A stretch of 64,000 nucleotides of DNA from a virus, in IMG/VR virus record IMGVR_UViG_3300032050_000122; one strand, given 5' to 3'. The position numbers and the translations under genes are program-made. Under the pieces are notes generated by a model. That model made no database searches and had not been told where the DNA came from. It saw nothing but the letters and a program-made list of their open reading frames with translations. The first letter of the stretch is position 1; the number at the start of each line of letters is the position of its first letter. Positions 3,015 through 17,840 of the stretch are shown here, piece after piece.

Positions 3015-4094
3015 TCACTGTTGAAACTTTCGGTGGTACCGTGCTTCCTTCGGGATACCGTCATCGGTGAGTTCACGGTAACGGAACGTAACCTGACTCC
3101 CCCTTGGAAACAATGGATTGTTAATCCAGTCAGGAACTTCTTTCTCTGGGTTGCAAATTGCCCACTCTTTGGCATAGACGATATTCTTGCCTTTGAGTTC
3201 ACGCTCGGCATCTGTGAACCCTGACAATTCGAGTCTTTTCCCGTTGAAGTTCGTAATCAGGGCACCCATCTTGCCGAGCAGTTTGCTGCCCTTATCGGTC
3301 TCTCGGCCAGTTGTGTAGCCCGTAACGATTGCTTCCGCATCATTGAAGTCTTTCACCTTCAAGATGTTGTAGCTACGTTTCGGTTCCCAACTTGCCGATG
3401 GCTTGCGAAGCATGATGCCTTCGCCGCCCTGGTCAACAACAGAATCCAACAACCGATTCAACTCGGTTACTGCGGCTGGCGTCGAAAACGGCATACGCCA
3501 CTGTGTATGTACTTGAAGATTTTCGGTGATCTTCAAGTTGCTACACAGATAGTTATGAACTTCTTCATACGATGACAACGGCGGCATGATTCCTGTGAAG
3601 TTTGCTTGCCACCAAGGGTAGCAACCTCGCAGAAACACCTTGTACGCTTGTACCGAGATGTCGCCATCTTGGAACAAAGAGTATGGCCAAGGCATGTCAA
3701 ACACCATGTATCTGACATTTCGCCAGCCCGAACCAGGGTTATGATCCTTGACCGTGGCTTGATTCGTCTGGAAGTTTCCACGACCAGACCACAATTCGCC
3801 ATCCAAACAAAAGTTTGGAAGTTGGTCAAGAAACCAATCCGGAGCGTAGATCACGTTACCATAACGTGACCACAGACCCGTGGCAATCACTTCGTTGACA
3901 CGAATGTGATCCTTCTCGGTGTTGGCATACGGAACTTGAGACGCGGGTTTACCACGACTTGCTCCGCCGTCCCAAAAAGCCCGCATACCATCTAATTTTT
4001 CGCTAGCAAACCAGCCAGCCGGCGAGTGCTTCTTCGGATCGTAAACATGAGCAAGTTGAACGTACTCACGTTTCAAAAGATTACGACTGGCCAT
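3015..4094 (-). CDS. ATP-dependent DNA ligase (phage T7/Chlorella-virus-type nucleotidyltransferase)
   Basis: 359 aa with motif I KLDGMRA (KxDGxR), motif III FCLDGELW, motif IV EGIMLRK and motif V LKVK. Confidence 0.8.
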   Translation of the reverse strand: MASRNLLKREYVQLAHVYDPKKHSPAGWFASEKLDGMRAFWDGGASRGKPASQVPYANTEKDHIRVNEVIATGLWSRYGNVIYAPDWFLDQLPNFCLDGELWSGRGNFQTNQATVKDHNPGSGWRNVRYMVFDMPWPYSLFQDGDISVQAYKVFLRGCYPWWQANFTGIMPPLSSYEEVHNYLCSNLKITENLQVHTQWRMPFSTPAAVTELNRLLDSVVDQGGEGIMLRKPSASWEPKRSYNILKVKDFNDAEAIVTGYTTGRETDKGSKLLGKMGALITNFNGKRLELSGFTDAERELKGKNIVYAKEWAICNPEKEVPDWINNPLFPRGSQVTFRYRELTDDGIPKEARYHRKFQQ

Positions 4095-4269
4095 ATTTTG
4101 CTCTCTCGGGGTGGTTGAATGTGAAGCGTTCGTGATCGCCGATGATGATCTCGCGTTCCATTCGTTTGCTCATCGTTTCGATTGTGACCCTTGACTCTTT
4201 GACTGGTGGCTCGGTGCAGCCAGCAGCGTGATCCAGACGCATTTGATGAATCCGTTCGTACTTGGTCAT
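4081..4269 (-). CDS. hypothetical small protein
   Basis: 62 aa ORF overlapping the ligase start by 14 nt. Confidence 0.3.
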   Translation of the reverse strand: MTKYERIHQMRLDHAAGCTEPPVKESRVTIETMSKRMEREIIIGDHERFTFNHPERAKYGQS

Positions 4270-4332
4270 TTGTCCAACTCCACATTGTTAAGGGTTGCAA
4301 AGTAACAATCATCAACTTTGAAATAATAACCA

Positions 4333-5154
4333 TTAGATGTTTGAAGGTTTTTCATCGGATTCCATATGCCAAGGGCAACTAAAACTGCCGGCGTGCTTGT
4401 GGCCACCGCCGCCGAATCGGGTACAGATTTCGCTAACGTCCATGCCGTTGGGATCGGAACGCAGCGAGTAGCAGAAACGCTTCTCTTTGTCCTTGTTCCA
4501 CCAGACGATTGCGAAAGGTTTGCCCTTTGCAAGTTCGCCGCCGATTTCCGATTGCAGGACGGTGGAGTTCACCATCGGAACTTTGTGACCCTCAAACTCG
4601 ATCTCGGTTGCCTGACTTACAGCTTTTTGAATCAGTTTCTCTTGGTACCGAAGGATTGATAAGCCTTGCGATGTACATAGAGTATGCCCTAGCTTGGTCA
4701 GCATTTCGCAATTGGCCATGCTAAAAGCATAAGACTGGATGCACGCATCGATCTCTTTGGACCGTGGAAGTTCCCATTTCCACAAATCACGGTCTTGGAT
4801 ATAAGGCAGAATCCACGGTGCTTCAAGGGTTGGATTGTAATATTCCCATGTGAGCATAGCACCGCACTTGTCAACGTCGTAGACATACTCAAACGGGTAC
4901 GACGGTACGAACCCTTCCATTTTGATTCTGGAAGATTTGTGGTGGTCGAGGATTTTGAGGGATTTATATTTGGCAGATTCCAGAGTCGCCCGATCAGGAC
5001 AGTAATCGACGCAAATTACGTCGTGGCCATCCAATGAGGGAATGCTGGTTTGGTAATAGACTGGAACCAAATCTGCTGTCAAATTGTGGAGATGAGCGTA
5101 ATAGGCCGCGAAGATTCCGTCGGCACAATTAGCATGGTAAAGGATGGTCGTCAT
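4333..5154 (-). CDS. DHH/DHHA1 family phosphoesterase (NrnA/RecJ-like)
   Basis: 273 aa with YHANCADG (motif I), ILDHHKS (DHH motif III) and the C-terminal DHHA1 signature FGGGGHKHA. Confidence 0.8.
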   Translation of the reverse strand: MTTILYHANCADGIFAAYYAHLHNLTADLVPVYYQTSIPSLDGHDVICVDYCPDRATLESAKYKSLKILDHHKSSRIKMEGFVPSYPFEYVYDVDKCGAMLTWEYYNPTLEAPWILPYIQDRDLWKWELPRSKEIDACIQSYAFSMANCEMLTKLGHTLCTSQGLSILRYQEKLIQKAVSQATEIEFEGHKVPMVNSTVLQSEIGGELAKGKPFAIVWWNKDKEKRFCYSLRSDPNGMDVSEICTRFGGGGHKHAGSFSCPWHMESDEKPSNI

Positions 5155-5616: not shown

Positions 5617-7053
5617 TTACATATACTCGCGTGCCCGAATGAAGTCGATGATTGCCTCGCTCCATCCACTGATGTGGACGAACTTGTTGTAGCCGATTCC
5701 ATTCTCATTGCAACTGATGTTGATGAGATAGTTGGAATCACCGAAGGCGTTTGCCTGAGACGGATCGAGCTTGCTGCCAGGAGTCTGGCAATCTTGCTCG
5801 TCCGTGATGACGATGACGCGGTCAGCCGTTCGCTGTTCCTGATAGACATAGTCCATGACTTGTTTCAGGAAGATGCCACCAGTACCGATTTGGTGCTGGA
5901 GTTGCAACTCACTGAACAGTCGAGACAACTCGAAACCACGCCGAGCCGGAATCTGCATCGTTGCATGACGCCGTGCCGAATCGCTACCGGCGGTAGCATA
6001 GATGACCGGATTTTCGGCGATCTCTTTGACGAGAATCGCCAACGCACCAGCGGCATCAAGACGCGACAGGTCGCTCTTGGCCGAGACCTTGCCCTGAGTC
6101 ATGGACCCCGAGGAATCCACGATCAGAACCGTCTTGCCGGGGAGCTTCGGAATCGTTTGGAGACAGCGAAGCATCATGTCTTCGATCATGTTCTGCCATG
6201 CCGGAACCGCACGGTAAGCCGCGATGAACCGGAAGGGAAGCACACGACCCAAATCAACATGCTTCGAGTACTCGACGACGAGTTCCTTGGCCACGCCGCT
6301 CTGTTCCATGTTGCGGAGATTCCGCAGGAACGCCAACGCACCGAGCTTGCCCTCTCTCATCAGACGCGTGAACGTCTCGCACTTGTCGGCTCCCGCAGAA
6401 AGCTCAACTTCCCAAGTATCGGGAGTCTTGAGAGTGCCTTCTGCCAACTTGTGGTAGAGGGAATCGGTGTGTCGTAGCAGGGACTTGGAGTGACCGTCTT
6501 TGTAAGTACGGTGCTTGATGGTGGCGGGGCCAACGTCAGCCGGTTTCGGATGACAGAGGAACATGGCGTCCCGGAGTTTGACCGCTCCATCACGATTATA
6601 CTTAGCCAAGGCGTACTCATTGAAGTTCCCGAAGGCTTTCGCCAGTCCTTTCTTGACTTGGGCAGAAATCGGGCACTTGCCATCTTTCCAGTAGATGGCA
6701 AGGAATTCTGCCAACTCGTCAGCACGCTGGATGATTTCCGGGAGCAGGTCTTTCACCAGTCCCTTGTGGCTATCCAGCCGAGCCATTTCACGTGCAATCA
6801 ACAACGGTACGTGCCGCAGTTTCTGATTCGTTCGGGCGTCGATCGCCATGTTCGCGACCTTCTGCGGATCGACCTGTTTGATGAGGCTCGCAATCCGCTT
6901 GGCGATCTTCTCGCCAGTTTCGTAGAACGTGTCTTCCCACAACATGCACGCCATCACGGATCGCCGAAGTTGTTCTTCGGGACTGACGTTGCTGGCGATT
7001 GCTCCGCCGTGGGTACGCTTGACAAGCTTGGGTGCCTTCACATTCGTCTTCAT
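5617..7053 (-). CDS. rsr: Ro60/Rsr ortholog (TROVE domain plus vWA domain)
   Basis: TROVE-like N-terminal region (HGGAIASN..., LRDAMFLCHPKP resembling the Ro60 LRLSHpKP motif) and C-terminal vWA domain with the Ro60-type MIDAS LIVDSSGSM. Start chosen at MKTNVKAP because of the strong RBS (AGGAGAgcatcATG); the ORF track extends to 7170. Confidence 0.75.
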   Translation of the reverse strand: MKTNVKAPKLVKRTHGGAIASNVSPEEQLRRSVMACMLWEDTFYETGEKIAKRIASLIKQVDPQKVANMAIDARTNQKLRHVPLLIAREMARLDSHKGLVKDLLPEIIQRADELAEFLAIYWKDGKCPISAQVKKGLAKAFGNFNEYALAKYNRDGAVKLRDAMFLCHPKPADVGPATIKHRTYKDGHSKSLLRHTDSLYHKLAEGTLKTPDTWEVELSAGADKCETFTRLMREGKLGALAFLRNLRNMEQSGVAKELVVEYSKHVDLGRVLPFRFIAAYRAVPAWQNMIEDMMLRCLQTIPKLPGKTVLIVDSSGSMTQGKVSAKSDLSRLDAAGALAILVKEIAENPVIYATAGSDSARRHATMQIPARRGFELSRLFSELQLQHQIGTGGIFLKQVMDYVYQEQRTADRVIVITDEQDCQTPGSKLDPSQANAFGDSNYLINISCNENGIGYNKFVHISGWSEAIIDFIRAREYM

Positions 7054-7241
7054 GATGCTCTCCTGGGATTGACAAAGCCACAGTTCATTGCGAAGCTCAT
7101 GACTTTTATAGTCCATGCTCCACAATTCCTGACCCATGACACTTATGGGTCTAATCATCGCTGCTTCCATTGTCTTATTCTTGTTTCTGCCGGAGTAATT
7201 GCTACTCGACGGCTACCACCGAATTTCTTTGTTAATTCAAT

Positions 7242-7282
7242 CTTCGGCTTGGGTCCACCGATGTAGAACCCAACGCCGAAGA
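7242..7282 (-). other. 13-bp bulged GC-rich hairpin with loop ...ATCGGTGG... between rsr and the upstream gene
   Basis: Minus-strand CTTCGGCGTTGGGT-tctacatcggtgg-ACCCAAGCCGAAG; no U-tract. The loop carries the CGGTGG core of the repeated box A. Confidence 0.4.
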
Positions 7283-7323
7283 TTGCAAAGGCACCTGTCA
7301 CATACAATGCTTCCGGGTGCATG

Positions 7324-7866
7324 TCAACTCCGTGGCAAATGCCAGACTGGGATGTTCGGTGGCAAGTAGCCCGAATAAAAAGCTTCTGCCCCGATCAAAT
7401 CACGCAGGAGTTTTAATGATTGGCGTCTCACTGTGACATAGTAGTAATCACACTGAGCGTCACGAACCGTGTCCCACACTTGGTACAACTGGTCCGTCTC
7501 AACGATTGCTTCACGTATCACATCCGCGTGGAACAAGTCTACTTCCAGCCTCTTGTTCAAGTCATTGCGAAATGACCGATTCAATGCCAGAAAGTCATTC
7601 AGTGTTTTACGCGTTGGATACCGGTTACACTCACCCAATTGTGGGTAAGACAGAAACTCTTCATTACGGCCCCTCAGCATCTCAAGATCAGTGTTTGGGT
7701 CTTGAGTGAGTAGGAAGGAATGTTCCCGCGGATCAAGAATCTCGCTATCAAGAGCGAGAGCCAGAATCGTTGGCCGTAATACCTCGATCCATGCAACGTC
7801 AACAGGTGGCGAGTCTTTCGAAGCCGTCAATAAGGCGGCTGCTAAGACAATCTCACAAGTGAACAC
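7324..7866 (-). CDS. hypothetical protein
   Basis: ORF track gives 7324..7908, which runs into tRNA-His. An in-frame GTG at 7866 is preceded by GGAGGG at a 7-nt spacing, giving about 180 aa. Confidence 0.45.
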   Translation of the reverse strand: MFTCEIVLAAALLTASKDSPPVDVAWIEVLRPTILALALDSEILDPREHSFLLTQDPNTDLEMLRGRNEEFLSYPQLGECNRYPTRKTLNDFLALNRSFRNDLNKRLEVDLFHADVIREAIVETDQLYQVWDTVRDAQCDYYYVTVRRQSLKLLRDLIGAEAFYSGYLPPNIPVWHLPRS

Positions 7867-7881
7867 ATAGATACCCTCCAG

Positions 7882-7958
7882 GGTGGTCGACGGGATTTGA
7901 ACCCGCAACCGCCGGAATCACAATCCGGTGCTCTGCCAGTTGAGCTACGACCAACATG
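7882..7958 (-). tRNA. tRNA-His (anticodon GTG)
   Basis: D-arm GCUC-AACUGGCA-GAGC, anticodon loop UUGUGAU, T-arm GCGGG-UUCAAAU-CCCGU, extra 5' G (G-1) opposite C73; one acceptor mismatch. Confidence 0.7.
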
Positions 7959-7993
7959 AATTTGCGGGAACAAGCGGAACGGCTGCTGCCCTT

Positions 7994-8044
7994 TCGGGCG
8001 ATCAAACCATCTTTGAAGTAACCGTTTCCTAACGCCACGCAAAC
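7994..8044 (-). promoter_or_regulatory. repeat unit copy 1 (box A 8015-8044 plus box-B-like 7994-8006) upstream of tRNA-His
   Basis: Minus strand GCGTGGCGTTaggaaaCGGTTACTTC then GGTTTGATCGCCCGAAAG; member of the repeat family at 8.0-11.6 kb. Confidence 0.5.
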
Positions 8045-8159
8045 ATTAAAGTGGGGAACAATCGCTGTAGTTAGCCGGTATCGAGCCGGCACCCTTGCGG
8101 GTTTCAAACCAAGAAGTAGCTACAACTATCACCACCACAAGAAGCATTAGAGGGATAAT

Positions 8160-8280
8160 AATCGACAACAGGGGTTGGTCTTTTGCTCTACCCACTGAGC
8201 TACAATCCATCCCGAGGGACTTCATGGCGGGATTCGAACCCACGACCTAAAGAAGTAACTGTTATCTACGCCACTCTAAT
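8160..8280 (-). ncRNA. candidate YrlA-like ncRNA: box A, then T-arm, hairpin and D-arm (permuted tRNA-like module), then closing stem and box-B-like
   Basis: Minus strand GAGTGGCGTAGATAACAGTTACTTC (8276-8252); T-arm GUGGG-UUCGAAU-CCCGC (8243-8227); hairpin GUCC-cucg-GGAU; GGAUUGUA plus D-arm GCUC-AGUGGGUA-GAGC (8200-8185); CUGUU (8171-8167) pairs with the AACAG of box A. No anticodon arm and no matching acceptor 3' strand. Confidence 0.45.
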
Positions 8281-8364
8281 AAGGTGCCGACGGCAGGATT
8301 CAAAATGGAGAGCCTGCGAAACAGGATCGTATCACCTGTGGTTAACCGCACAGATTACCACCCC

Positions 8365-8387
8365 GCTAAAGGGTGTGGCCACACCCC
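8365..8387 (-). terminator. possible weak terminator hairpin after the kinase gene
   Basis: Perfect palindrome GGGTGTGGCCACACCC followed by only UUU on the minus strand. Confidence 0.3.
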
Positions 8388-8409
8388 GTCCGCGTTCGTC
8401 GGCCTGATT

Positions 8410-8847
8410 TCATGCTAAGAACACTTCTTGATTCCAATAGGAAGGAACAATTTGTTCTTGAAGGTTCTTATGCATTGCCAAAATTGTGTTGACCGGTACC
8501 TTGTGCGTATTTCTACGCATTGCACGACTAACCGGACACATGTGGTACTTGATCACGTAATCGTGGCCTAATGCTTGAGCGATTCTGACATATGGAGCTA
8601 GTTCCATGAGAGTTGTGTTTGTGTTATCCACAATAAAAAGTGGACAGCGTTTCTCAACGAAGACCGCCGAGATGTAACAACGCAAACACCAATCATGAGC
8701 CTCACCCGCACGCTTAGGGTCGTACTGGTAAATACCATTGACTGTGTGAAAGTCATCAGCCGAGAAGATTTCACAATCTTCACCAGCATAGTTCTTCACA
8801 TAAGTTGATTTACCTGACCCAGGCAATCCTCGCATGATCCAGATCAT
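8410..8847 (-). CDS. P-loop kinase (polynucleotide kinase-like, AAA_33 type)
   Basis: 145 aa starting MIWIMRGLPGSGKSTYVKNY (Walker A) and resembling the T4 Pnk kinase domain N-terminus; RBS AAGGAAAG precedes the ATG. Confidence 0.65.
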   Translation of the reverse strand: MIWIMRGLPGSGKSTYVKNYAGEDCEIFSADDFHTVNGIYQYDPKRAGEAHDWCLRCYISAVFVEKRCPLFIVDNTNTTLMELAPYVRIAQALGHDYVIKYHMCPVSRAMRRNTHKVPVNTILAMHKNLQEQIVPSYWNQEVFLA

Positions 8848-8934
8848 GGTCTTTCCTTAAAAAGTTAATTGGTCCAGAGCCTTCACGGTAACACACCGTG
8901 GCCTGCCCAGCTTAAGCACTCTGGACCAAAAGGT

Positions 8935-9000
8935 ATCGGGGATTAAATCGGTCACAGCTTTTTCTAAGCATGAAGTAACCGTGACCAACGCCACCGAAAG
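8935..9000 (-). promoter_or_regulatory. repeat unit copy 3 (box B 8935-8948, hairpin, box A 8972-9000) upstream of the kinase gene
   Basis: Minus strand CTTTCGGTGGCGTTGGTCACGGTTACTTC ... GCTGTGACCG ATTTAATCCCCGAT; the GGTCAC/GTGACC stem covaries with other copies. Confidence 0.55.
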
Positions 9001-9004
9001 TTTG

Positions 9005-9265
9005 TTACTTGGGCTTCCACTCTTCGGGAATCTTTTCCTTGTCGTTGAAGATGTTGCCCATTCGAATCTTCCAGTCTTCACCTTCGGGAAGACCAGCATG
9101 GCGATACATGGTATCACCCACCATACGCCAAACTCCTGCCTGGGATTCCGGCGGCACGTAAGCCGCTCGTTGCATGATTTGTTTCAAGTCGTTGGCCAAC
9201 GCGACTTCCGTCGGCGGCAGAACTTCTTGAATGACAAACTTCACCAATCGATCAAGGTCTCGCAT
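9005..9265 (-). CDS. hypothetical protein
   Basis: 86 aa; RBS AAGGAAAAG upstream of ATG at 9265. Confidence 0.5.
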   Translation of the reverse strand: MRDLDRLVKFVIQEVLPPTEVALANDLKQIMQRAAYVPPESQAGVWRMVGDTMYRHAGLPEGEDWKIRMGNIFNDKEKIPEEWKPK

Positions 9266-9284
9266 GATTCTTTTCCTTAATAAG

Positions 9285-9402
9285 AGCGGGGATTAAACGA
9301 AATCAGTATTTAGTCCCACACTTGCGGGTTTACGGCCCGTAGTTGTGGGGCTTCTCCGGTCATGGTGGGGAAGTAACTGATCTCAAACGCCACCGCAAAA
9401 AG
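9285..9402 (-). promoter_or_regulatory. repeat unit copy 4 (box A 9370-9402, long structured loop, box B 9285-9298)
   Basis: Minus strand GCGGTGGCGTTTGAGATCAGTTACTTC ... ACTGAT ... GTTTAATCCCCGCTC; ATCAGT/ACTGAT stem. Confidence 0.5.
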
Positions 9403-9403
9403 A

Positions 9404-9682
9404 TCACTTCGTGGGAATCGGCTCAAGCGGACTCGTCGCCAAATGAATGGCAACGTGGTGAATCTTGTTGGTTTCTTTGTCAATGACCCACGACTCCTGC
9501 TCCTGGTAGAACCGATTCAGTTCGAAGATCGCTTCGATCGATTCGAGCCACCACCAAGAGGTTTCGCCTTCGTCGGCAACACCGATCAACCAGCGTGCAT
9601 CGGCGGGCTTACGCCCCACGAATCCTGACACGCGGGAAATTCCTTTGTAAACGACGTTGTCGTATTTCGTTTGCATGTTCAT
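9404..9682 (-). CDS. hypothetical protein
   Basis: Start moved to MNMQTKYD (ATG at 9682) because the longer ORF would run through the upstream repeat unit; RBS AAGGAAatgaacATG. Confidence 0.5.
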   Translation of the reverse strand: MNMQTKYDNVVYKGISRVSGFVGRKPADARWLIGVADEGETSWWWLESIEAIFELNRFYQEQESWVIDKETNKIHHVAIHLATSPLEPIPTK

Positions 9683-9697
9683 TTCCTTAAAAGAAGT

Positions 9698-9763
9698 ATC
9701 GGGGATTAAACGCTTAGGGTTGGCACTTTTAACAGAAGTATCCCTTAGCATACGCCACCGATG
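9698..9763 (-). promoter_or_regulatory. repeat unit copy 5 (box A 9735-9763, hairpin GCTAAGGG/CCCTAAGC, box B 9698-9711)
   Basis: Minus strand CATCGGTGGCGTATGCTAAGGGATACTTC tgttaaaagtgccaa CCCTAAGC GTTTAATCCCCGAT, then RBS and ATG. Confidence 0.55.
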
Positions 9764-9912
9764 ATTGTGAGCCTGGACTGCCATTCATTTATTTAACGCC
9801 CCGGTCCTGGCACCTGGTGCGTCTAACTCTGACGTTCCCATGTAACGCCACGCGAGTGTTGGGTTTTGCTAACCATAAGTGACCACACCAACAGGCCACC
9901 CTTCGATTCCTC

Positions 9913-10161
9913 CTAGAGTTGACCAGCGAGGTACAACAAAGCCGCCTTGAACGCCGCTCGATTGCTGCCGGGCGTCTTGGGAATTTCGTCCATCTTGTTT
10001 GTCATCTCTTTGTAGAGACGGGTCTGTTCGACATCCATCTCTTCGTGAGTCGCGTTCGGTTTCGATTCATACAACTGAAAGAACGTGACGATGGCACTGA
10101 GCGTTTTCAACTGCTGAGCCATCTCTAGGGACAGCGTCAGAATCAAAAGTTCCTTGAGCAT
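9913..10161 (-). CDS. hypothetical protein
   Basis: 82 aa; RBS AAGGAAAtgtctcATG. Confidence 0.5.
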   Translation of the reverse strand: MLKELLILTLSLEMAQQLKTLSAIVTFFQLYESKPNATHEEMDVEQTRLYKEMTNKMDEIPKTPGSNRAAFKAALLYLAGQL

Positions 10162-10188
10162 GAGACATTTCCTTTCGAGAAAGAATGG

Positions 10189-10347
10189 TTAAGGTTCAAC
10201 TGATGCGATGACCCATGACGATAGGACATCAAGGATTCTGTCGGCTTCGTCTTCCGACGTTTCTTGTCCAACGGTTTCCCATTCACCGTGAACAAAGACT
10301 TCAATATGCCAGTTGCCAGAATCGTCGTCCAATCGTTTTCGAATCAT
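10189..10347 (-). CDS. hypothetical small protein
   Basis: Start at MIRKRLDD (GGAG RBS) rather than 10401, which would overlap the upstream repeat unit; 52 aa. Confidence 0.4.
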   Translation of the reverse strand: MIRKRLDDDSGNWHIEVFVHGEWETVGQETSEDEADRILDVLSSWVIASVEP

Positions 10348-10423
10348 CTTGAAACTCCAAAACAGGGGCAAGTAACTAGCGTCAGAACCCCGATGACCCA
10401 ATTACCTACCCCTGTGATTCAAA

Positions 10424-10492
10424 ATCGGGGATTGTTCGCTACGGCTTTTCGTGCAAAGGTAGAAGTAACCGTAGCAATCGCCACCGAAAAAG
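10424..10492 (-). promoter_or_regulatory. repeat unit copy 6 (box A 10462-10492, hairpin GCTACGG/CCGTAGC, box B 10424-10437)
   Basis: Minus strand CTTTTTCGGTGGCGATTGCTACGGTTACTTC ... CCGTAGC GAACAATCCCCGAT. Confidence 0.55.
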
Positions 10493-10628
10493 CATGTACT
10501 CACGTTATCTGTTATTCTCTTCGACCTTCGGCATCATGCGTACTTTCCGAGTCAGACCACGCCGTGAGTACAACCCCATCCTCAAAAGGCAGGGGCGGGC
10601 CAGATGGGGACGGAACCCTTCTCCAGCA

Positions 10629-10838
10629 TCAGGCCGACTTTGCAGTCAGCTTATCCATGTACTTGGCCTTGTTCACGACGCCCCGACGAATCGAAGCGAG
10701 AACTTGGTTGGCACGTTTGACATGCCGTTCCGTGTACGTCTTACCGGCGAACTTCTCGGCGATGACACCTGCATCAAGCAGGGCACCGTCTTTGTCTCGA
10801 CCGAACTTGCTGACATTGGCTTTCGTGATGTTAATCAT
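10629..10838 (-). CDS. hypothetical protein
   Basis: Likely starts at MINITKANV (69 aa). The longer 10629..11003 frame overlaps a better-supported gene in another frame. Confidence 0.35.
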   Translation of the reverse strand: MINITKANVSKFGRDKDGALLDAGVIAEKFAGKTYTERHVKRANQVLASIRRGVVNKAKYMDKLTAKSA

Positions 10839-10872
10839 GGTTAGTGATTCCAATGAGTGTTGGGAAACGGGT

Positions 10873-11124
10873 TTAGGACGCCAGAAGATACACGCCGCGA
10901 GGCTTGTCGAAGACGATGGTCGCGATGACCACTGACTCCTCAACCTCGATGCCTTCGTCATTTTTGACCATTCGATTTTCCTTGACAACCTGTTGGTCGC
11001 CAAAGGCTTTCTTCACATTGGCCCGTCGTTCCGTGACGGCCCGACCGCGACCCGGCCAGATTCCACGAAGGGTAGCTTGACCGTGCTTGCGGCACTTGTC
11101 GATCAGAACTTGCACTTCATTCAT
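10873..11124 (-). CDS. hypothetical protein
   Basis: 83 aa; strong RBS AAGGAAAGtttcATG. Confidence 0.5.
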   Translation of the reverse strand: MNEVQVLIDKCRKHGQATLRGIWPGRGRAVTERRANVKKAFGDQQVVKENRMVKNDEGIEVEESVVIATIVFDKPRGVYLLAS

Positions 11125-11153
11125 GAAACTTTCCTTAAGTAAAGGGACCAGTG

Positions 11154-11221
11154 GGGGCCCGAGGATTTGAACCTCATCTCTGAGTTAAACTCAGGCTCTG
11201 CCAAGTTAAGCTAAAGCCCCA
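11154..11221 (-). tRNA. tRNA with atypical anticodon arm (possible anticodon UUA; or a 5-nt loop)
   Basis: D-arm GCUU-AACUUGGC-AGAGC and T-arm UGAGG-UUCAAAU-CCUCG. Anticodon arm CUGA-GUUUAAC-UCAG gives UUA with a 4-bp stem; the alternative is a 5-bp stem with loop UUUAA. Acceptor has a mismatch and GU pairs. Confidence 0.45.
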
Positions 11222-11224
11222 AAT

Positions 11225-11293
11225 CGGGGAACAAACGATTACGGGGTCACATCAACCAAAAGAAGTACCCGCAATCAAACGCCACCGAAAGCA
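11225..11293 (-). promoter_or_regulatory. repeat unit copy 7 (box A 11264-11293, hairpin GATTGCGGG/CCCCGTAATC, box B 11225-11238) upstream of the UUA tRNA
   Basis: Minus strand CTTTCGGTGGCGTTTGATTGCGGGTACTTC ... CCCCGTAATC GTTTGTTCCCCGAT. Confidence 0.5.
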
Positions 11294-11366
11294 CGACCGG
11301 GTGGAATCGAACCACCAACCTACGGTTTTGGAGACCGTCGCTCTGCCAATTGAGCTACTAGCCGCG
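11294..11366 (-). tRNA. tRNA-Trp (anticodon CCA), acceptor stem does not pair as read
   Basis: D-arm GCUC-AAUUGGCA-GAGC, anticodon arm ACGGU-CUCCAAA-ACCGU, T-arm GGUGG-UUCGAUU-CCACC. The 5' CGGCUAG and 3' CGGUCGU are not complementary, so this may be a pseudo-tRNA or I have misread the boundaries. Confidence 0.5.
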
Positions 11367-11374
11367 TTGTGTCC

Positions 11375-11492
11375 GGGATTAAGTCGAATCAGTATAGCAT
11401 CCTACCATTAGACGACGAAGGCAAGCCCTCGGTGGGATTCGAACCCACATCTCTTCTTTGACATAGAAGTAACCGATTCTAAACGCCACGGA
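11375..11492 (-). ncRNA. candidate YrlA-like ncRNA: box A, then T-arm, closed acceptor-like hairpin and D-arm, then stem and box B
   Basis: Minus strand CCGTGGCGTTTAGAATCGGTTACTTC (11492-11468); T-arm GUGGG-UUCGAAU-CCCAC (11450-11434); hairpin CGAGG-gcuugc-CUUCG; UC; D-arm GUCU-AAUGGU-AGGA (11415-11402); GAUUC pairs with the GAAUC of box A; TTAATCCCGG (11386-11375). Confidence 0.45.
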
Positions 11493-11567
11493 ACTAAGAA
11501 CCAGGGATTAACTGAGTCGGTGCCGCTGTTGCCAAATCTTGCGGCCTCAACACCCTTGCGGATGCTG

Positions 11568-11637
11568 ACAGGATTCGAACCTGCAATTACTTATGAAGTA
11601 TCCGATTCAATCGCCACTGGTAAGTTGTCAGACGATC
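11568..11637 (-). ncRNA. tRNA-like element: acceptor-like stem, box A in place of the D and anticodon arms, and a T-arm
   Basis: Minus strand CUGACAAcuuacCAGUGGCGAUUGAAUCGGAUACUUCauaaguaauuGCAGG-UUCGAAU-CCUGUCAG; box-B-like TTAATCCCTGG at 11514-11503. Confidence 0.35.
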
Positions 11638-11831
11638 ACCACGAGCAGGCCGAGCAGGAACGCGATTTCGTCGGGATGTTCATTCACCACGACGCATTCC
11701 AAATCGGAGTCGACATCGATTCGAGTCCGATTCCCATACTCATCGTCCGCCGGAAGTGGGACCAGAGCGAGGATCATTTCCGGACGAAGCCAAATCGAGT
11801 GGCCAGTCATCGTGCAAGTCAGACGAATCAT
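11628..11831 (-). CDS. hypothetical protein
   Basis: 67 aa, RBS AAGGAA; its 3' end overlaps the tRNA-like element. Confidence 0.35.
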   Translation of the reverse strand: MIRLTCTMTGHSIWLRPEMILALVPLPADDEYGNRTRIDVDSDLECVVVNEHPDEIAFLLGLLVVIV

Positions 11832-11854
11832 GCTGCGTTCCTTAAATGGAGGGT

Positions 11855-12181
11855 TCAGATCAACTCAAGCAGGAACTCTACAGTAAGTTCCAGCCGGTTA
11901 ATCCATTCTTTTGCTTCCGCGAGTTCCTGACACTTTCGCGTCAGTTCCGAATCGTACCCTTCGGGCCGATCCGCAAGTGCTTTCTTGAGCTTATCTCGAA
12001 GATGGCTCAGTTGTTTGGTTTGCATCGCAATGCCTTCATCGCGACGAGCAATCATCTCTTCCATCCGGTTGATTTGAAGCTGACGATCGGTGAGCTTCAT
12101 CATGTGATTCTTGAGCCGCTGACGCATACCCTCAAGAGCCTTAGCTTGGTTCAAAATCACAAGATCATCGGCTGCACTCAT
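11855..12181 (-). CDS. hypothetical coiled-coil protein
   Basis: 108 aa, heptad-rich. Confidence 0.45.
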   Translation of the reverse strand: MSAADDLVILNQAKALEGMRQRLKNHMMKLTDRQLQINRMEEMIARRDEGIAMQTKQLSHLRDKLKKALADRPEGYDSELTRKCQELAEAKEWINRLELTVEFLLELI

Positions 12182-12387
12182 TTGAGCATCTCATAAGTGT
12201 CACCCGCTACAGCAACGGGTATGTGGCGGAGAACCTCGTTCGGGTCCATATCGTTGGCTGCACAACGATTAACAGCGGCGTCAAGGTCGGTCATGATTCC
12301 CCAGGGAGTCACAATCCAAACCGCAAACGAGGTAATCGGAATCGGCCGACCAGTCAACGTGACTGTCTTTGCAACAAGGTCGATCAT
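12178..12387 (-). CDS. hypothetical protein
   Basis: 69 aa, 4-nt overlaps with both neighbours. Confidence 0.45.
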   Translation of the reverse strand: MIDLVAKTVTLTGRPIPITSFAVWIVTPWGIMTDLDAAVNRCAANDMDPNEVLRHIPVAVAGDTYEMLK

Positions 12388-16234: not shown

Positions 16235-17206
16235 TCAGTAGCTCCTGCAAATGGCGTCAAATTCCTCGTCACGCATTCCCATCGACTGTTGGTCGAGAGT
16301 CTTGCAGCGGGCTTGCGATTGCTCAAGGGTCATGTTGCGGAAGATATGGTCACTGTGGACAATATCCCAAATCTCTTGAGCCAGAGCAAACGTATGCCAC
16401 TGGAAGGTCTCACTGATTCGCAGCCGATGTTCGGCAATCCGAATGCTCGGTTTGATGCCACCCGGCTTGCAAACCAGTTGGTCAATCGCGGTGATGAAAT
16501 CGCTGCCGACTTCGTTACCGCACAACCAACCGTAAATTGCAAGCTGAACAGCCCAACTCTCGTTGAGTTCTTCGAGACGTTGGTCACGGTTAATCATCAT
16601 TCCATGATGCATGGCTGGGATGCAGTTCTTGTGTGGGCCAGTGAAATCGGCACCACGAATCCGCAAGTAACCCGGCATCGGACTGATTCCCGACTTGCTA
16701 CAGTAGCCATTCACCTTGAAGTCCAAGGTGACATTGATTCCGCTTTTGTGGTTGAAGGACACGTCCGGTTTACCCAAGAACGTGACCCCTGACACACTCT
16801 TCGTGACGCCTTCTTTTTGTCCATTGACCACGCCACGAACTTCGATTTCAAAACGCGGTGTACCAACCGCTTGTTCCAAATCCGACATTAGGTCAGCCAA
16901 CGCACCTGAGTGCTTGTAGCAATCGAAAGCGTGACGACCGTTGTCCCATGCCCAGTCCCAATGGTGTCGTTCGACCTGAGCTTCAAAGAGCGTTCTCAAA
17001 TCGAAACGAGGGTCATTGCCTTTACCGAACAACGCTTCGTGCATCCAACTCTTCACGTAAGCATCGAAGGCGGACCCGATCGACATTGGCTGAGTTTGCT
17101 TGTCTCGTGTTGGACGATTCTCAGACAGGTATCTGAGGTAATAGTCCTCGGCGTTCTGCTTGAATGCTGCGATGCTCGTCGGGCTGAGGTACTCAAGTTT
17201 CCTCAT
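16235..17206 (-). CDS. putative PD-(D/E)xK-type nuclease
   Basis: 323 aa; candidate catalytic GKPDVSF ... LDFKVNGYC (D...D/ExK). Confidence 0.4.
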   Translation of the reverse strand: MRKLEYLSPTSIAAFKQNAEDYYLRYLSENRPTRDKQTQPMSIGSAFDAYVKSWMHEALFGKGNDPRFDLRTLFEAQVERHHWDWAWDNGRHAFDCYKHSGALADLMSDLEQAVGTPRFEIEVRGVVNGQKEGVTKSVSGVTFLGKPDVSFNHKSGINVTLDFKVNGYCSKSGISPMPGYLRIRGADFTGPHKNCIPAMHHGMMINRDQRLEELNESWAVQLAIYGWLCGNEVGSDFITAIDQLVCKPGGIKPSIRIAEHRLRISETFQWHTFALAQEIWDIVHSDHIFRNMTLEQSQARCKTLDQQSMGMRDEEFDAICRSY

Positions 17207-17840
17207 TGTTGCTCCTTAGGAATCGGTTCTTGATGACATCGAAGATACGGCTTGCAGTCACGTAGTGTATACCCGTCTTTTCCTGAATTTCCCTAAAGGT
17301 ATAACCCTGACACTTCAAGTCGAAAATCTTTCGTTCCTCTTCCGTCAAAACAGCAAGCTGAATCTCTTCATCAAGAATCATCTTACGGAGCGGACTCATC
17401 TCTCTGCCAGCCACTTCCCGGTTGGGCAGAATCTTTTTGTCTTCTTGTCCAATCACATACCTCGCATGGGTTGATAGCGGAATCAACCGATCTCGATGTA
17501 TGAACCGACCACACGCTTCGTGCATCCGGTAGGATACAAACTTTCCAAAAGAATCAGTTTTCATTTTTTCAACGTCGTGACAGGCTTTAACCAAAGCAAG
17601 AGCAGCTTCACTTACAAGGTCTTTCGATTTCTTTGGTTCTAAAGCTCCGTAGCATCCAGCGATGTACACGACCAGTTTCAAGTGTCCTGTTACAATCTCT
17701 TCGATGACACTCTTATCCCCAGCCTTGAGCTTGACTACCAGTTCGTCTAATCGTTCCTTGGTAATCTTAGGCGAAGGAACTTTGCTGAATGGATAACGAA
17801 TCGAACACGGCCTTGTCTTCTTACCAAGTAGGAACATCAA
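17193..17840 (-). CDS. sigma-70 family sigma factor (phage-encoded)
   Basis: 215 aa; region-2-like DLVSEAALALVKACHDV and C-terminal region-4 HTH YTFREIQEKTGIHYVTASRIF. Confidence 0.6.
   Translation of the reverse strand: MMFLLGKKTRPCSIRYPFSKVPSPKITKERLDELVVKLKAGDKSVIEEIVTGHLKLVVYIAGCYGALEPKKSKDLVSEAALALVKACHDVEKMKTDSFGKFVSYRMHEACGRFIHRDRLIPLSTHARYVIGQEDKKILPNREVAGREMSPLRKMILDEEIQLAVLTEEERKIFDLKCQGYTFREIQEKTGIHYVTASRIFDVIKNRFLRSNNEET

What the first reader, a model, noticed from the sequence alone, without database searches (positions are those of the whole stretch)
7990..11640. Family of at least 10 same-orientation repeat units: conserved box A, a hairpin whose stem covaries, conserved box B, then RBS and gene
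Copies lie at about 7994-8044, 8160-8280, 8935-9000, 9285-9402, 9698-9763, a partial copy at about 9829-9856, 10424-10492, 11225-11293, 11375-11492 and 11503-11622. On the minus strand each reads cTTTCGGTGGCGTT-(6-10 variable nt)-(C)GGnTACTTC, a variable loop, then the exact reverse complement of the variable segment, then GTTTAATCCCCGAT, about 15 nt, AAGGAA and ATG. The paired segments differ between copies but stay complementary: GGTCAC/GTGACC, GCTAAGGG/CCCTAAGC, GCTACGG/CCGTAGC, ATCAGT/ACTGAT, GATTGCGGG/CCCCGTAATC. That is compensatory covariation, which argues for a conserved structure rather than only a primary-sequence promoter. Units precede six protein genes and three tRNAs; three of them carry T-arm-containing tRNA-like inserts in the loop. 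Box A could be the promoter for the phage sigma factor at 17193-17840, with the hairpin plus box B forming a 5' leader or processing signal. Alternatively each unit could be a small structured RNA.
Basis: seen in the sequence. Interest (0 to 1): 0.85.

Follow-up and report, generated by a model that had tools for sequence, protein, structure and literature searches.

The report
Phage Y RNA array beside Ro60
The repeats are an unusually large array of about eleven small structured RNAs of the Y RNA kind, the partners of the RNA-binding protein Ro60 whose gene lies just downstream, and they are not promoters; the RNA class is known, but the size of the array and its compact hairpin subtype are new.

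Summary
The repeat family is real: GTGGCG-N10-13-TACTTC occurs 9 times, all on the minus strand between 8.0 and 11.6 kb, against 0.02 expected. I count 10 complete units plus one truncated remnant. The key context is a Ro60/TROVE gene at 5617-7053(-), directly downstream on the same strand. A covariance model built from four units finds nothing else in the 64-kb window. It does hit 35 of 43 viral loci that encode Ro60 relatives (38-93% identity), always on the Ro60 strand and mostly within 600 nt upstream. It also hits beside Ro60 in cultured phages (Olaya, CcrColossus, Kabachok) and in cellular genome and MAG contigs. Box A carries the published Rsr-binding motif GNCGAA as GGCGWW, and as exact GGCGAAG in distant phages. 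Units U2 and U9 carry the permuted tRNA-like module of YrlA, and U9 gives a full-length but sub-threshold Rfam YrlA hit. The short units match the 'long hairpin, pyrimidine-rich loop' YrlB type. New here are the array size, the interleaving with small genes and tRNAs, and a sequence-defined hairpin subtype that no Rfam family matched here. Ro60 binding is inferred, not tested.

The parts
11500..11621 (-). U1: Y RNA-like unit with a degenerate tRNA-like apical module (V-like hairpin, T arm CAGGUUCGAAUCCUG, 8-bp stem capped by GCAA, 5-bp D-like stem)
   Evidence: Sequence; MFE fold z -4.21; R1 hit at 30.7 bits; outer stem CCAGUGG/UCCCUGG
11372..11492 (-). U2: YrlA-type unit with a permuted tRNA-like module (T arm, acceptor-like stem closed by a loop, D arm)
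   Evidence: fold z only -0.90; blastn match of its tRNA-like part to the gap upstream of Ro60 in Xanthomonas phages; weak Rfam tRNA hit at 25.4 bits
11291..11365 (-). tRNA-Trp (CCA). Its 3' end abuts the 5' end of U3
   Evidence: ARAGORN; Rfam 52.2 bits
11224..11288 (-). U3: short hairpin unit (YrlB-like) lying exactly between two tRNA genes
   Evidence: R1 81.7 bits; fold z -3.38
11153..11220 (-). tRNA-like gene immediately 3' of U3, with an odd anticodon loop UUUAACU
   Evidence: Rfam tRNA 34.7 bits; not called by ARAGORN; sequence
10425..10487 (-). U4: short hairpin unit
   Evidence: R1 64.6 bits; fold z -3.53
9829..9856 (-). U5: truncated remnant, box A only (GCGTGGCGTTA). L121 has an intact unit here
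   Evidence: no stable fold (z +0.23)
9698..9762 (-). U6: short hairpin unit, followed 8 nt later by UAAGGAAA and the start of g6
   Evidence: R1 73.6 bits; fold z -2.74
9286..9396 (-). U7: unit with a 68-nt structured apical insert that is not tRNA-like
   Evidence: R1 49.4 bits; fold z -3.62
8936..8997 (-). U8: short hairpin unit
   Evidence: R1 67.6 bits; fold z -3.85
8283..8403 (-). Separate multi-hairpin RNA of about 120 nt. Its closing stem GCCGACG/CGUCGGC carries GACGAACG. A possible further Y RNA of another type
   Evidence: Fold z -2.86; conserved in L121 with a compensatory change in the closing stem; no Rfam hit; not found in other loci
8145..8281 (-). U9: best YrlA-type unit, with T arm GUGGGUUCGAAUCCCGC and D arm UAGCUCAGUGGGUAGAGCA in permuted order
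   Evidence: Rfam YrlA RF02553, 36 bits, E 2.3e-5, full-length, below the gathering score of 69; outer stem UUAGAGUGG/UCCCUCUAA
8051..8138 (-). U10: unit with the GUGGUG variant of box A and a miniature tRNA-like apical module (GCAA-capped stem, 5-bp stem-loop).
   Evidence: R1 23.8 bits; sequence; outer stem GUGGUGG/UCCCCAC. My fold of 8055-8138 was uninformative (z 0.02) because the cut dropped most of the outer-stem 3' strand
7960..8044 (-). U11: unit with a GAAA-capped apical stem. Its 3' end lies 5 nt before tRNA-His
   Evidence: R1 27.1 bits; fold z -2.08
7881..7954 (-). tRNA-His (GUG)
5617..7053 (-). Ro60/Rsr ortholog (TROVE ring plus vWA domain). The longest ORF starts at 7170, but the likely start is the ATG at 7053, which has AGGAG upstream
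   Evidence: Pfam TROVE E 5.7e-14; PHROG 850 'RNA-binding protein' E 1.1e-38; nearest solved structure is phiLo phiRo60, 9KOP/9L5Y, E 1.8e-26; start region
8410..8847 (-). g8: P-loop kinase (AAA_33, polynucleotide-kinase-like) inside the array; absent from L121
   Evidence: Pfam; PHROGs 2071 and 505
9005..11124 (-). Interleaved small protein genes: g2 10873-11124, g3 10629-10838, g4 10189-10347, g5 9913-10161, g6 9404-9682, g7 9005-9265. They are not part of the RNA units
   Evidence: Third-codon-position excess against L121 for g2, g5 and g7; no useful family matches; none found in L122

Best explanation
The units are genes, or excisable modules of one long transcript, for Y RNA-like small RNAs. 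These are the RNA partners of the phage Ro60 (Rsr) protein encoded just downstream on the same strand.

Each unit is one long hairpin with four parts:
- a basal stem NNNGUGG/UCCCNNN with a conserved U.C mismatch;
- an asymmetric internal loop holding CG(W)(W) on the 5' side and (G)UUUR(U/A) on the 3' side;
- a second stem of 7-10 bp that covaries;
- an apical part that always starts with (G)GUUACUUC.

The basal stem plus the GGCGWW loop is the counterpart of the GNCGAA stem-bulge-stem that Ro60 proteins bind, so I infer that it is the Ro60 docking site. The apical part is the variable 'effector' module. It is a full permuted tRNA-like domain in U2 and U9 (YrlA type), a reduced version in U1, U10 and possibly U11, another structure in U7, and a short pyrimidine-rich loop in U3, U4, U6 and U8 (YrlB type).

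No sigma-70-like promoters or terminators stand out inside the array, and U2, U3 and U11 abut tRNA genes. I therefore infer that the RNAs are cut out of a polycistronic precursor, partly by RNase P and tRNA 3'-end processing. By analogy with D. radiodurans, Salmonella and Thermus phage phiLo, the resulting particles would gate Ro60 and tether it to host PNPase or other partners, altering RNA turnover during infection.

Shown here: the repeats, the structure and its covariation, the linkage to Ro60, and the resemblance to YrlA/YrlB. Inferred: Ro60 binding, processing from a precursor, and the effect on PNPase.
For: Ro60 gene directly downstream on the same strand.

Model R1, built from only four window units, finds all units in the window and nothing credible elsewhere in 64 kb.

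R1 gives 78 hits in 43 Ro60-encoding viral loci, all on the Ro60 strand. 35 of the 43 loci are positive, and 54 of 62 hits outside the two close relatives end within 600 nt upstream of Ro60.

The reverse test also holds. Of six motif-retrieved loci confirmed by R1, four encode Ro60 just downstream, as does the double-motif locus L044, which R1 matched only weakly at E 0.004-0.03.

The same unit lies in the unannotated gap upstream of Ro60 in Xanthomonas phage Olaya, Caulobacter phage CcrColossus and Brevundimonas phage Kabachok. In Olaya and CcrColossus it lies next to Rfam YrlA hits. It is also present in 7 of 11 Ro60 loci from cellular genome and MAG contigs.

Covariation across 58 distinct sequences: 88.2% of cells paired against 65.4% when shuffled; score 0.537 against 0.145 (0 of 500 shuffles reached it); 0.03-0.10 when partners are slid; outer stem 99.6% paired with 4-6 pair types at three of its four positions.

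Box A is GGCGWW here and GGCGAAG in L126, L134 and L162. That equals the GNCGAAN0-1G motif of Chen et al. 2014 (PMC4201824). It sits in a stem-bulge-stem, as in phiLo Yrl1/Yrl2, which bind phiRo60 at about 16 nM (PMC12135203).

U9 gives a full-length YrlA match. U1 and U2 fold into V/T/acceptor/D four-way junctions.

Against: No binding or expression data exist for this phage.

The Rfam YrlA score is well below the gathering threshold (36 against 69 bits), and only U9 is hit.

The canonical AA of GNCGAA is replaced by UU, AU or UA in every window copy. In phiLo, single A-to-U changes raised Kd 3-4-fold.

The farthest units lie about 4.4-4.6 kb from Ro60, with protein genes in between, which is unusual for Y RNAs.

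Alignment A3 was fitted to the model, so its pair counts lean towards the structure.

The invariant UWCUUC has no documented role in Y RNAs.

A separate element at 8283-8403 carries an exact GNCGAANG and could be the, or another, real Ro60 ligand.
Confidence: 0.82

Rival explanations
1. The Ro60-binding modules act in cis. The hairpins stay attached to the mRNAs of the small genes, and of Ro60 itself in other phages. Acting as 5' leaders or 3' caps, they would let Ro60 control processing, stability or translation of those messages. They would not work as free small RNAs.
For: U6 and U7 end 8 nt before a strong UAAGGAAA ribosome-binding site, about 20 nt before the ATG. In many distant loci the last unit ends 4-50 nt before the start of the Ro60 match. 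No internal promoters or terminators stand out. M. smegmatis YrlA and YrlB come from one precursor and lie upstream of rsr.
Against: Units flanked on both sides by tRNAs or by other units (U1, U2, U3, U9, U10, U11) have no ORF to regulate. L122 keeps 8 units but none of the ORFs. Characterised Y RNAs are free RNAs.
Confidence: 0.1
2. Box A, together with TACTTC at a fixed 11-12 nt spacing, is a promoter for a phage-specific sigma factor or RNA polymerase, and the hairpin is a transcribed 5' leader.
For: The spacing between GTGGCG and TACTTC is nearly fixed at 11-12 nt. The units are co-oriented with the genes, and several precede an RBS. A weak sigma-70 region-4 protein is encoded at 17193-17840 (E 7.8e-4).
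Against: There are no copies elsewhere in the 64-kb window. Box A pairs with box B with compensatory changes, so both are read as RNA. G.U pairs work only on the minus-strand transcript. The units track Ro60 across unrelated phages and cellular genome and MAG contigs whatever their transcription genes. Several units are followed by another unit or by a tRNA.
Confidence: 0.04
3. The units are generic RNA processing or stabilising hairpins, like the RNase III sites between phage T7 early genes. They would cut the polycistronic transcript into stable monocistronic pieces and have no connection with Ro60.
For: They have a lower stem, internal loop and upper stem, and they sit between genes of one operon. 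The comparison with T7 RNase III sites rests on my own knowledge.
Against: This does not explain the tight, strand-specific linkage to Ro60 in 35 of 43 loci, the tRNA-like apical domains, the match to the Rsr-binding motif, or the absence of copies from the rest of the window's operons.
Confidence: 0.03
4. The units are a selfish or recombinogenic repeat, MITE-like or REP-like, that spread inside this phage, and their structure is incidental.
For: The copy number is high only in this lineage: 10-11 here, 9 model hits in L121 and 7 in L122 at E < 0.1, and no more than 4 elsewhere. Whole gene cassettes next to units differ between the window and L121.
Against: The sequence, structure and position beside Ro60 are conserved across phages whose Ro60 is only 38-50% identical. 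Compensatory changes indicate selection on the RNA fold. No transposase or target-site duplication was noticed (sequence).
Confidence: 0.01

Closest known systems
Bacterial and phage YrlA Y RNAs (Chen et al. 2014, RNA 20:1715; Rfam RF02553)
   Same: They are encoded upstream of Ro60/rsr on the same strand, and their 5' and 3' ends pair in a stem carrying a GNCG(A/W)(A/W) motif. They have a stem, internal loop, stem layout. The apical domain is a tRNA opened at the anticodon, in the order V arm, T arm, acceptor stem closed by a loop, D arm (U2, U9, and U1 in reduced form). U9 gives a full-length match to RF02553.
   Different: Scores are far below the Rfam threshold (36 against 69 bits). The basal helix is GUGG/UCCC with a U.C mismatch and lies outside the Rfam model. 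AA is replaced by UU, AU or UA in the window. An invariant UWCUUC follows the second stem. There are 11 copies here, whereas Chen et al. reported 355 YrlAs across 276 genomes (254 bacteria and 22 phages), about 1.3 per genome.
Hairpin-type Y RNAs: Salmonella and M. smegmatis YrlB, D. radiodurans Yrn2, Thermus phage phiLo Yrl1/Yrl2
   Same: [quoted passage not shown] They lie upstream of Ro60, and in M. smegmatis they are processed from one precursor with YrlA. phiLo Yrl1 and Yrl2 bind phage Ro60 and host PNPase. The window's Ro60 is most similar, among solved structures, to phiLo phiRo60.
   Different: Chen et al. found YrlB homologs only within Salmonella serovars. Here a sequence-defined hairpin subtype (GUGGYG...UWCUUC...UUCCC) is recognisable across dozens of phage lineages and in some cellular genome contigs. 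I could not compare the sequences directly with phiLo Yrl1/Yrl2, because their sequences were not in the text I could read.
RNase III processing hairpins between phage T7 early genes
   Same: They are repeated intergenic stem, internal loop, stem elements within one operon, and they may release discrete RNAs (resemblance from my own knowledge).
   Different: They have no linkage to Ro60, no tRNA-like modules and no GNCGAA-type motif. Cleavage of these units by RNase III was not tested here.
Circularly permuted tRNA genes (red alga Cyanidioschyzon merolae)
   Same: The order T arm, 3' acceptor, linker, 5' acceptor, D arm is seen in U2 and U9.
   Different: The outer helix continues into a conserved Ro60-type stem rather than a bulge-helix-bulge splice motif. 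No anticodon loop could be formed by joining the ends. Most units have no tRNA part at all.

Membership tests
Bacterial/phage Y RNA (Ro60-associated RNA; criteria of Chen et al. 2014) | Encoded within about 4 kb of a Ro60/TROVE gene and on the same strand | tested here: met
   Ro60 lies at 5617-7053(-) and the units at 7960-11621(-), so distances run from 0.9 to about 4.4-4.6 kb. The same linkage is seen in 35 of 43 other viral Ro60 loci.
Bacterial/phage Y RNA (Ro60-associated RNA; criteria of Chen et al. 2014) | 5' and 3' ends pair in a stem with an internal loop or bulge that carries the GNCGAAN0-1G (CGAA) motif near the 5' end | tested here: inconclusive
   The stem-loop-stem layout is met and supported by covariation. 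The motif is GGCG followed by UU, AU or UA in the window (UGAU in U10). Exact GGCGAAG occurs in homologous units of L126, L134 and L162, and across distant rows the motif positions are G, G, Y, G, W, W.
Bacterial/phage Y RNA (Ro60-associated RNA; criteria of Chen et al. 2014) | Physically bound by Ro60/Rsr and dependent on it for accumulation | not testable with these tools
   This needs EMSA, RIP or Northern blots.
YrlA subfamily (Rfam RF02553) | Score at or above the Rfam gathering threshold of 69 bits | tested here: not met
   U9 scores 36 bits, E 2.3e-5, full-length over model positions 1-114. No other unit is hit. Homologous RNAs in Olaya and CcrColossus score 40-50 bits.
YrlA subfamily (Rfam RF02553) | tRNA-like module with conserved T arm and D arm and an acceptor-like stem closed by a loop, in permuted order | tested here: met
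   Met for U9 (GUGGGUUCGAAUCCCGC; UAGCUCAGUGGGUAGAGCA) and U2, and in reduced form for U1 and U10. Not met for U3, U4, U6, U7 and U8.
YrlB / Yrn2 / phiLo Yrl hairpin-type Y RNA | [quoted passage not shown] | tested here: met
   U3, U4, U6 and U8 are 62-65-nt hairpins whose apical part starts with the pyrimidine-rich UACUUC(U).
Sigma-factor or phage-RNAP promoter | Occurs upstream of many transcription units of the phage, and its sequence is read as DNA with no need for long-range complementarity | tested here: not met
   Copies occur only at 7960-11624 within the 64 kb. Box A and box B covary as a helix.
Functional (permuted) tRNA gene | Recognised by tRNA finders, and an anticodon arm can be formed | tested here: not met
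   ARAGORN calls none of the units. The Rfam tRNA model gives only 17-25 bits on parts of U2 and U10. The 'anticodon' helix continues into the Ro60-type stem.

The most novel reading that the evidence does not exclude
The array could be a modular library of Ro60 adaptors embedded in a messenger RNA. All eleven RNAs share one Ro60-docking base, but each carries a different apical module: full tRNA mimic, reduced tRNA mimic, GNRA-capped helices or a bare pyrimidine loop. Each module would direct Ro60 and host PNPase to a different RNA or protein target. Because the modules sit directly in front of ribosome-binding sites and between swappable gene cassettes, they would also act in cis, coupling Ro60 binding to the processing and translation of the small early genes. 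They would additionally serve as recombination points for cassette exchange.
Probability: 0.12. Interest if true: 0.7.

Novelty: new variant of a known kind. Interest (0 to 1): 0.45.

Why it matters
Y RNAs are the obligate partners of Ro60, a conserved RNA quality-control protein and a human autoantigen. In bacteria and phages they have been hard to find beyond the tRNA-like YrlA type.

This locus, together with the model derived from it, defines a compact hairpin Y RNA of about 65 nt (GUGGYG...UWCUUC...UUCCC). No Rfam family matched it here. It marks Ro60 loci in most of the phage lineages sampled and in some cellular genome contigs.

The locus also shows a natural series running from a full tRNA mimic to a minimal hairpin on one shared Ro60-type base, in eleven copies. 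That makes it a convenient system for asking two questions: what the apical modules of Y RNAs do, and why a phage would invest in so many of them.

None of this overturns current understanding. It extends a known system.

Tried and rejected
Promoter reading: rejected, as set out above.

Permuted functional tRNA genes: considered because of the T arm, acceptor, D arm order. Rejected because most units have no tRNA part and no anticodon arm can form.

Ribozyme, riboswitch or other Rfam families: no hit at E <= 10 other than YrlA, tRNA and noise such as skipping-rope at 19 bits and Bacilli-1.

MAFFT alignment of the four short units put the variable stem out of register for two rows. I therefore let Infernal realign the sequences.

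The exact-pattern scan of viral contigs returned mostly single chance hits, since only 14 bases were specified. Only loci confirmed by the model were used.

The automatic parser picked the wrong register for U10, and the parse was redone by hand.

The within-window test of cognate against non-cognate variable stems was only modestly discriminating (8.4 against 5.5 bp), because the stems share a conserved core.

I first set the wrong frames for g3, g4 and g6 and then corrected them. PHROGs gave no function for the small ORFs.

The DNA polymerase found no relative among cultured phages, so the host and lineage remain unknown.

Two reviews on bacterial Y RNAs (PMC10870794, PMC6047535) were not held.

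The second structured RNA at 8283-8403 could not be found beyond L121 by BLAST or motif search.

Structure prediction and the large protein searches were not used, because Pfam, PHROGs and the PDB search already identified Ro60.

Full report
**1. The observation**

Read on the minus strand, window 7960-11621 contains a family of co-oriented units. The pattern GTGGCG-N10-13-TACTTC matches 9 times, all on the minus strand and all inside 8015-11617, against 0.02 expected from dinucleotide shuffles. The 'partial copy' near 9843-9853 is a truncated remnant. The close relative L121 has an intact unit at that site, and homology with the window breaks inside GTGGCGTTA.

Unit coordinates:

| Unit | Coordinates |
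|---|---|
| U1 | 11621-11500 |
| U2 | 11492-11372 |
| U3 | 11288-11224 |
| U4 | 10487-10425 |
| U6 | 9762-9698 |
| U7 | 9396-9286 |
| U8 | 8997-8936 |
| U9 | 8281-8145 |
| U10 | 8138-8051 |
| U11 | 8044-7960 |

**2. Anatomy**

In fact they pair with each other. The 5' NNNGUGG pairs with the 3' UCCCNNN, with a conserved U.C mismatch inside the helix.

The N positions are complementary in all ten units, using seven different combinations: CCA/UGG, UCC/GGA, UCG/CGA, GCG/CGC, AGA/UCU, GUG/CAC and UGC/GCA. Non-cognate partners pair at only 1.52 of 3 positions.

Above this basal stem the unit continues as follows:
- an asymmetric internal loop, CG(W)(W) on the 5' side and (G)UUUAA or UUUGU on the 3' side;
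- the 'variable' stem of 7-10 bp, which contains G.U pairs and occasional mismatches, so it is not an exact reverse complement;
- an apical part that always begins (G)GUUACUUC.

The G.U pairs would be C.A on the other strand, so the structure belongs to the minus-strand transcript.

RNAfold, given each unit alone, recovers this layout with z-scores of -1.7 to -4.2 for eight of the ten complete units. U2 is weaker (z -0.9). My cut of U10 dropped most of its outer-stem 3' strand and was uninformative.

The apical parts form a series:

| Units | Apical part |
|---|---|
| U9, U2 | Complete tRNA-like domain in permuted order: V-like hairpin, T arm GGUUCGAAUCC, acceptor-like stem closed by a loop, D arm |
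| U1, U10 | Reduced versions, with GCAA-capped stems |
| U11 | GAAA-capped stem |
| U7 | Another 68-nt structure |
| U3, U4, U6, U8 | Short loop of about 17-32 nt that starts with the pyrimidine-rich UACUUC(U) |

**3. Context**

The ORF immediately downstream on the same strand is a Ro60/Rsr ortholog. It runs 5617-7170 at its longest, and the likely start is the ATG at 7053, which has AGGAG upstream. The supporting evidence is:
- Pfam TROVE, E 5.7e-14, plus a weak Ro60-type vWA domain;
- PHROG 850, 'RNA-binding protein', E 1.1e-38;
- the nearest solved structures, Thermus phage phiLo phiRo60 and its complex with the Y RNA-like Yrl2 (9KOP and 9L5Y, E 1.8e-26).

Rfam in E-value mode gives a full-length match of U9 to YrlA ('Y RNA-like', RF02553) at 36 bits, E 2.3e-5. 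That is below the gathering score of 69.

**4. Linkage to Ro60 elsewhere**

I built covariance model R1 from only the four short window units.

- *In the window.* R1 finds the ten units and nothing credible elsewhere on either strand.
- *In viral contigs.* In 43 viral contigs retrieved solely because they encode a Ro60 relative (38-93% identity), R1 gives 78 hits at E < 0.1. Every hit is on the Ro60 strand. 35 of the 43 loci have at least one unit. Outside the two close relatives, 54 of 62 hits end within 600 nt upstream of the Ro60 match, typically 1-4 units abutting the gene.
- *The reverse test.* Among loci fetched only through the RNA pattern, R1 confirmed six. Four of them (L030, L045, L049, L077) encode Ro60 just downstream on the same strand. 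So does the double-pattern locus L044, which R1 matched only weakly at E 0.004-0.03. The other two confirmed loci gave no Ro60 match; L061 holds only 1.4 kb and L007 6.7 kb.
- *In cultured phages.* The unit lies in the unannotated gap upstream of Ro60 in Xanthomonas phage Olaya, Caulobacter phage CcrColossus and Brevundimonas phage Kabachok. Olaya has one short unit followed directly by one with a 74-nt insert, plus two sub-threshold Rfam YrlA hits, making four Y-type RNAs in about 700 nt. CcrColossus has three units plus a YrlA hit. Kabachok has one unit. The phiLo paper cites Chen et al. [quoted passage not shown]
- *In cellular genome contigs.* The unit is found in 7 of 11 Ro60 loci from cellular genome and MAG contigs, including a 545-kb Terriglobus scaffold. 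The family is therefore probably not confined to phages, although a prophage origin was not excluded.

**5. Covariation**

This test used the alignment of 59 hits (58 distinct) from the window and 23 other loci.

| Measure | Observed | Control |
|---|---|---|
| Cells forming standard pairs | 88.2% | 65.4% when shuffled |
| Pairs with changes on both sides | 14 of 16 | |
| Covariation score | 0.537 | 0.145 shuffled (0 of 500 reached it); 0.03-0.10 with 3' partners slid by 1-3 columns |
| Outer stem paired | 99.6%, with 4-6 pair types at three of its four positions | |

One caveat applies: the alignment was fitted to the model, which favours the structure. The size of the effect and the within-window result argue that the helices are real.

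Among 43 rows from 22 loci other than the window and L121, three blocks are nearly invariant: G-U-G-G-Y-G, U-W-C-U-U-C and U-U-C-C-C.

A subgroup with UUCAUC in place of UACUUC has GAUAAA where the others have GAAAA. This suggests a short apical helix, AUCU/AGAU against CUUC/GAAR (inference, not tested formally).

**6. Identification**

Chen et al. 2014 (PMC4201824) define bacterial and phage Y RNAs by four features:
- location within 4 kb of rsr on the same strand;
- a GNCGAAN0-1G motif near the 5' end that overlaps the Rsr-binding region;
- in M. smegmatis, processing of both from a single precursor upstream of rsr.

The phiLo study (PMC12135203) describes two hairpin Yrls upstream of phiRo60 with CGAA in a stem-bulge-stem. 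Binding is about 16 nM, single substitutions to U in CGAA cost only 3-4-fold, and ternary complexes form with host PNPase that slow its activity.

The present units fit this description on four counts:
- the position is right;
- box A is GGCG(W)(W) at the junction of stem and internal loop, and reads exactly GGCGAAG in homologous units of L126, L134 and L162;
- U2 and U9 have the YrlA architecture;
- U3, U4, U6 and U8 have the YrlB-type architecture.

I therefore identify the repeat family as an array of Y RNA-like RNAs for the adjacent Ro60. Ro60 binding itself is inferred.

**7. How it probably works**

No sigma-70-like promoters or intrinsic terminators exceed chance in 7100-12200.

Several units are framed by tRNA genes:
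- U3 is framed exactly. tRNA-Trp ends at 11291 and a tRNA-like gene starts at 11220.
- U2 ends 6 nt before tRNA-Trp.
- U11 ends 5 nt before tRNA-His.

The simplest reading is one long transcript from which tRNAs and Y RNAs are excised, partly by RNase P and tRNA 3'-end processing. This is inference.

The shared base would dock Ro60, and the diverse apical modules would engage different partners. By analogy these are host PNPase, and tRNA enzymes for the tRNA-like modules.

A P-loop polynucleotide-kinase-like gene (g8) lies inside the array. This fits the view of Ro60 as part of RNA-repair platforms in phages (PMC7824862).

**8. The genes between units**

g1, g2, g5, g7 and the 181-aa gene at 7324-7869 show a third-codon-position excess against L121, so they are real genes. 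None has a useful family match.

They are not conserved partners of the units. L122 (Ro60 69% identical) has 8 units but none of these ORFs. Even L121 (Ro60 93% identical) lacks g4, g6 and g8, and it carries an 887-nt two-ORF insert that the window lacks. Each of these differences lies next to a unit.

The strong RBS UAAGGAAA-N-AUG occurs only at g2, g6, g7 and g8 in the whole window. It belongs to those cassettes, not to the units.

**9. Verdict**

The promoter-plus-leader reading is not supported, and the 'small structured RNA' alternative is right.

The kind of RNA, a Y RNA beside Ro60 in phages, is already known. Three things are new:
- the size of the array: 10-11 copies here, 9 and 7 model hits at E < 0.1 in L121 and L122, and no more than 4 in every other locus examined;
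- its interleaving with tRNAs and variable small-gene cassettes;
- a sequence-defined compact hairpin subtype (GUGGYG...UWCUUC...UUCCC) that no Rfam family matched here, yet which tags Ro60 loci across many phage lineages.

The phage itself has no cultured relative detectable through its DNA polymerase.

Noticed in passing
window 8283-8403 (-); L121 6566-6742: A separate multi-hairpin RNA of about 120 nt lies between the kinase gene and U9. Its closing stem GCCGACG/CGUCGGC carries GACGAACG, an exact match to GNCGAAN0-1G. In L121 the stem is GCCGAUG/CAUCGGC (a compensatory change), the internal hairpins differ but stay paired, and two single-stranded blocks are conserved. It has no Rfam hit and was not found in other loci. 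It may be another type of Y RNA.
   Followed up: partly
window 8334-8869, 9404-9682, 10174-10360; L121 5276-6163: Whole gene cassettes next to units differ between the window and its close relative L121 (Ro60 93% identical). g4, g6 and the kinase g8 are absent from L121, and L121 has an 887-nt two-ORF insert absent from the window. The repeated units may act as recombination or insertion points.
   Followed up: partly
window 11153-11220 (-): A tRNA-like gene is found only by Rfam (34.7 bits) and not by ARAGORN. Its anticodon loop is UUUAACU, giving anticodon UAA with a pyrimidine at position 37. It may be a degenerate or unusual tRNA.
   Followed up: no
window 8868-8925 (-) and 10363-10412 (-): Additional long hairpins sit between U8 and g8 (UUGGUCCAGAG...CUCUGGACCAA, conserved in L121) and between U4 and g4 (ACAGGGG...CCCCUGU followed by UUUU). 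Their function is unknown, and the terminator scan did not call them.
   Followed up: no
L121 6866-6978: An extra tRNA-like insert of about 110 nt (closing GACCC/GGGUC, T-loop-like GGUGCAAGUCCGCC) lies between the U9 and U10 homologs. It is absent from the window and not called by ARAGORN.
   Followed up: no
window 8845-8859, 9263-9279, 9674-9689, 11122-11137 (-): The strong ribosome-binding site UAAGGAAA-N4-9-AUG occurs only at four genes in the whole 64-kb window (g8, g7, g6, g2). All four lie inside the Y RNA array (5 matches at 4 sites against 0.15 expected).
   Followed up: partly
window 3015-5154 (-): Downstream of Ro60 lie an ATP-dependent ligase (DNA_ligase_A_M plus OB_2) and a protein with a weak DHHA1 phosphoesterase hit. 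Together with the kinase g8 and the many tRNAs, this could form an RNA-repair or quality-control island.
   Followed up: no
L167 8920-9175 (Brevundimonas phage Kabachok): Rfam finds a permuted tmRNA (57 bits, above threshold) that is not annotated in the phage record, about 2.4 kb downstream of its Ro60 gene.
   Followed up: no
Chen et al. 2014 probe sequences: The M. smegmatis YrlA and YrlB probe sequences imply the RNA sequences UUACCACUUCU and GGCGACUUCAAGGUUCGA. An ACUUC-like element next to GNCGA may therefore also exist in mycobacterial Y RNAs, hinting that the invariant UWCUUC is older than this phage group.
   Followed up: no
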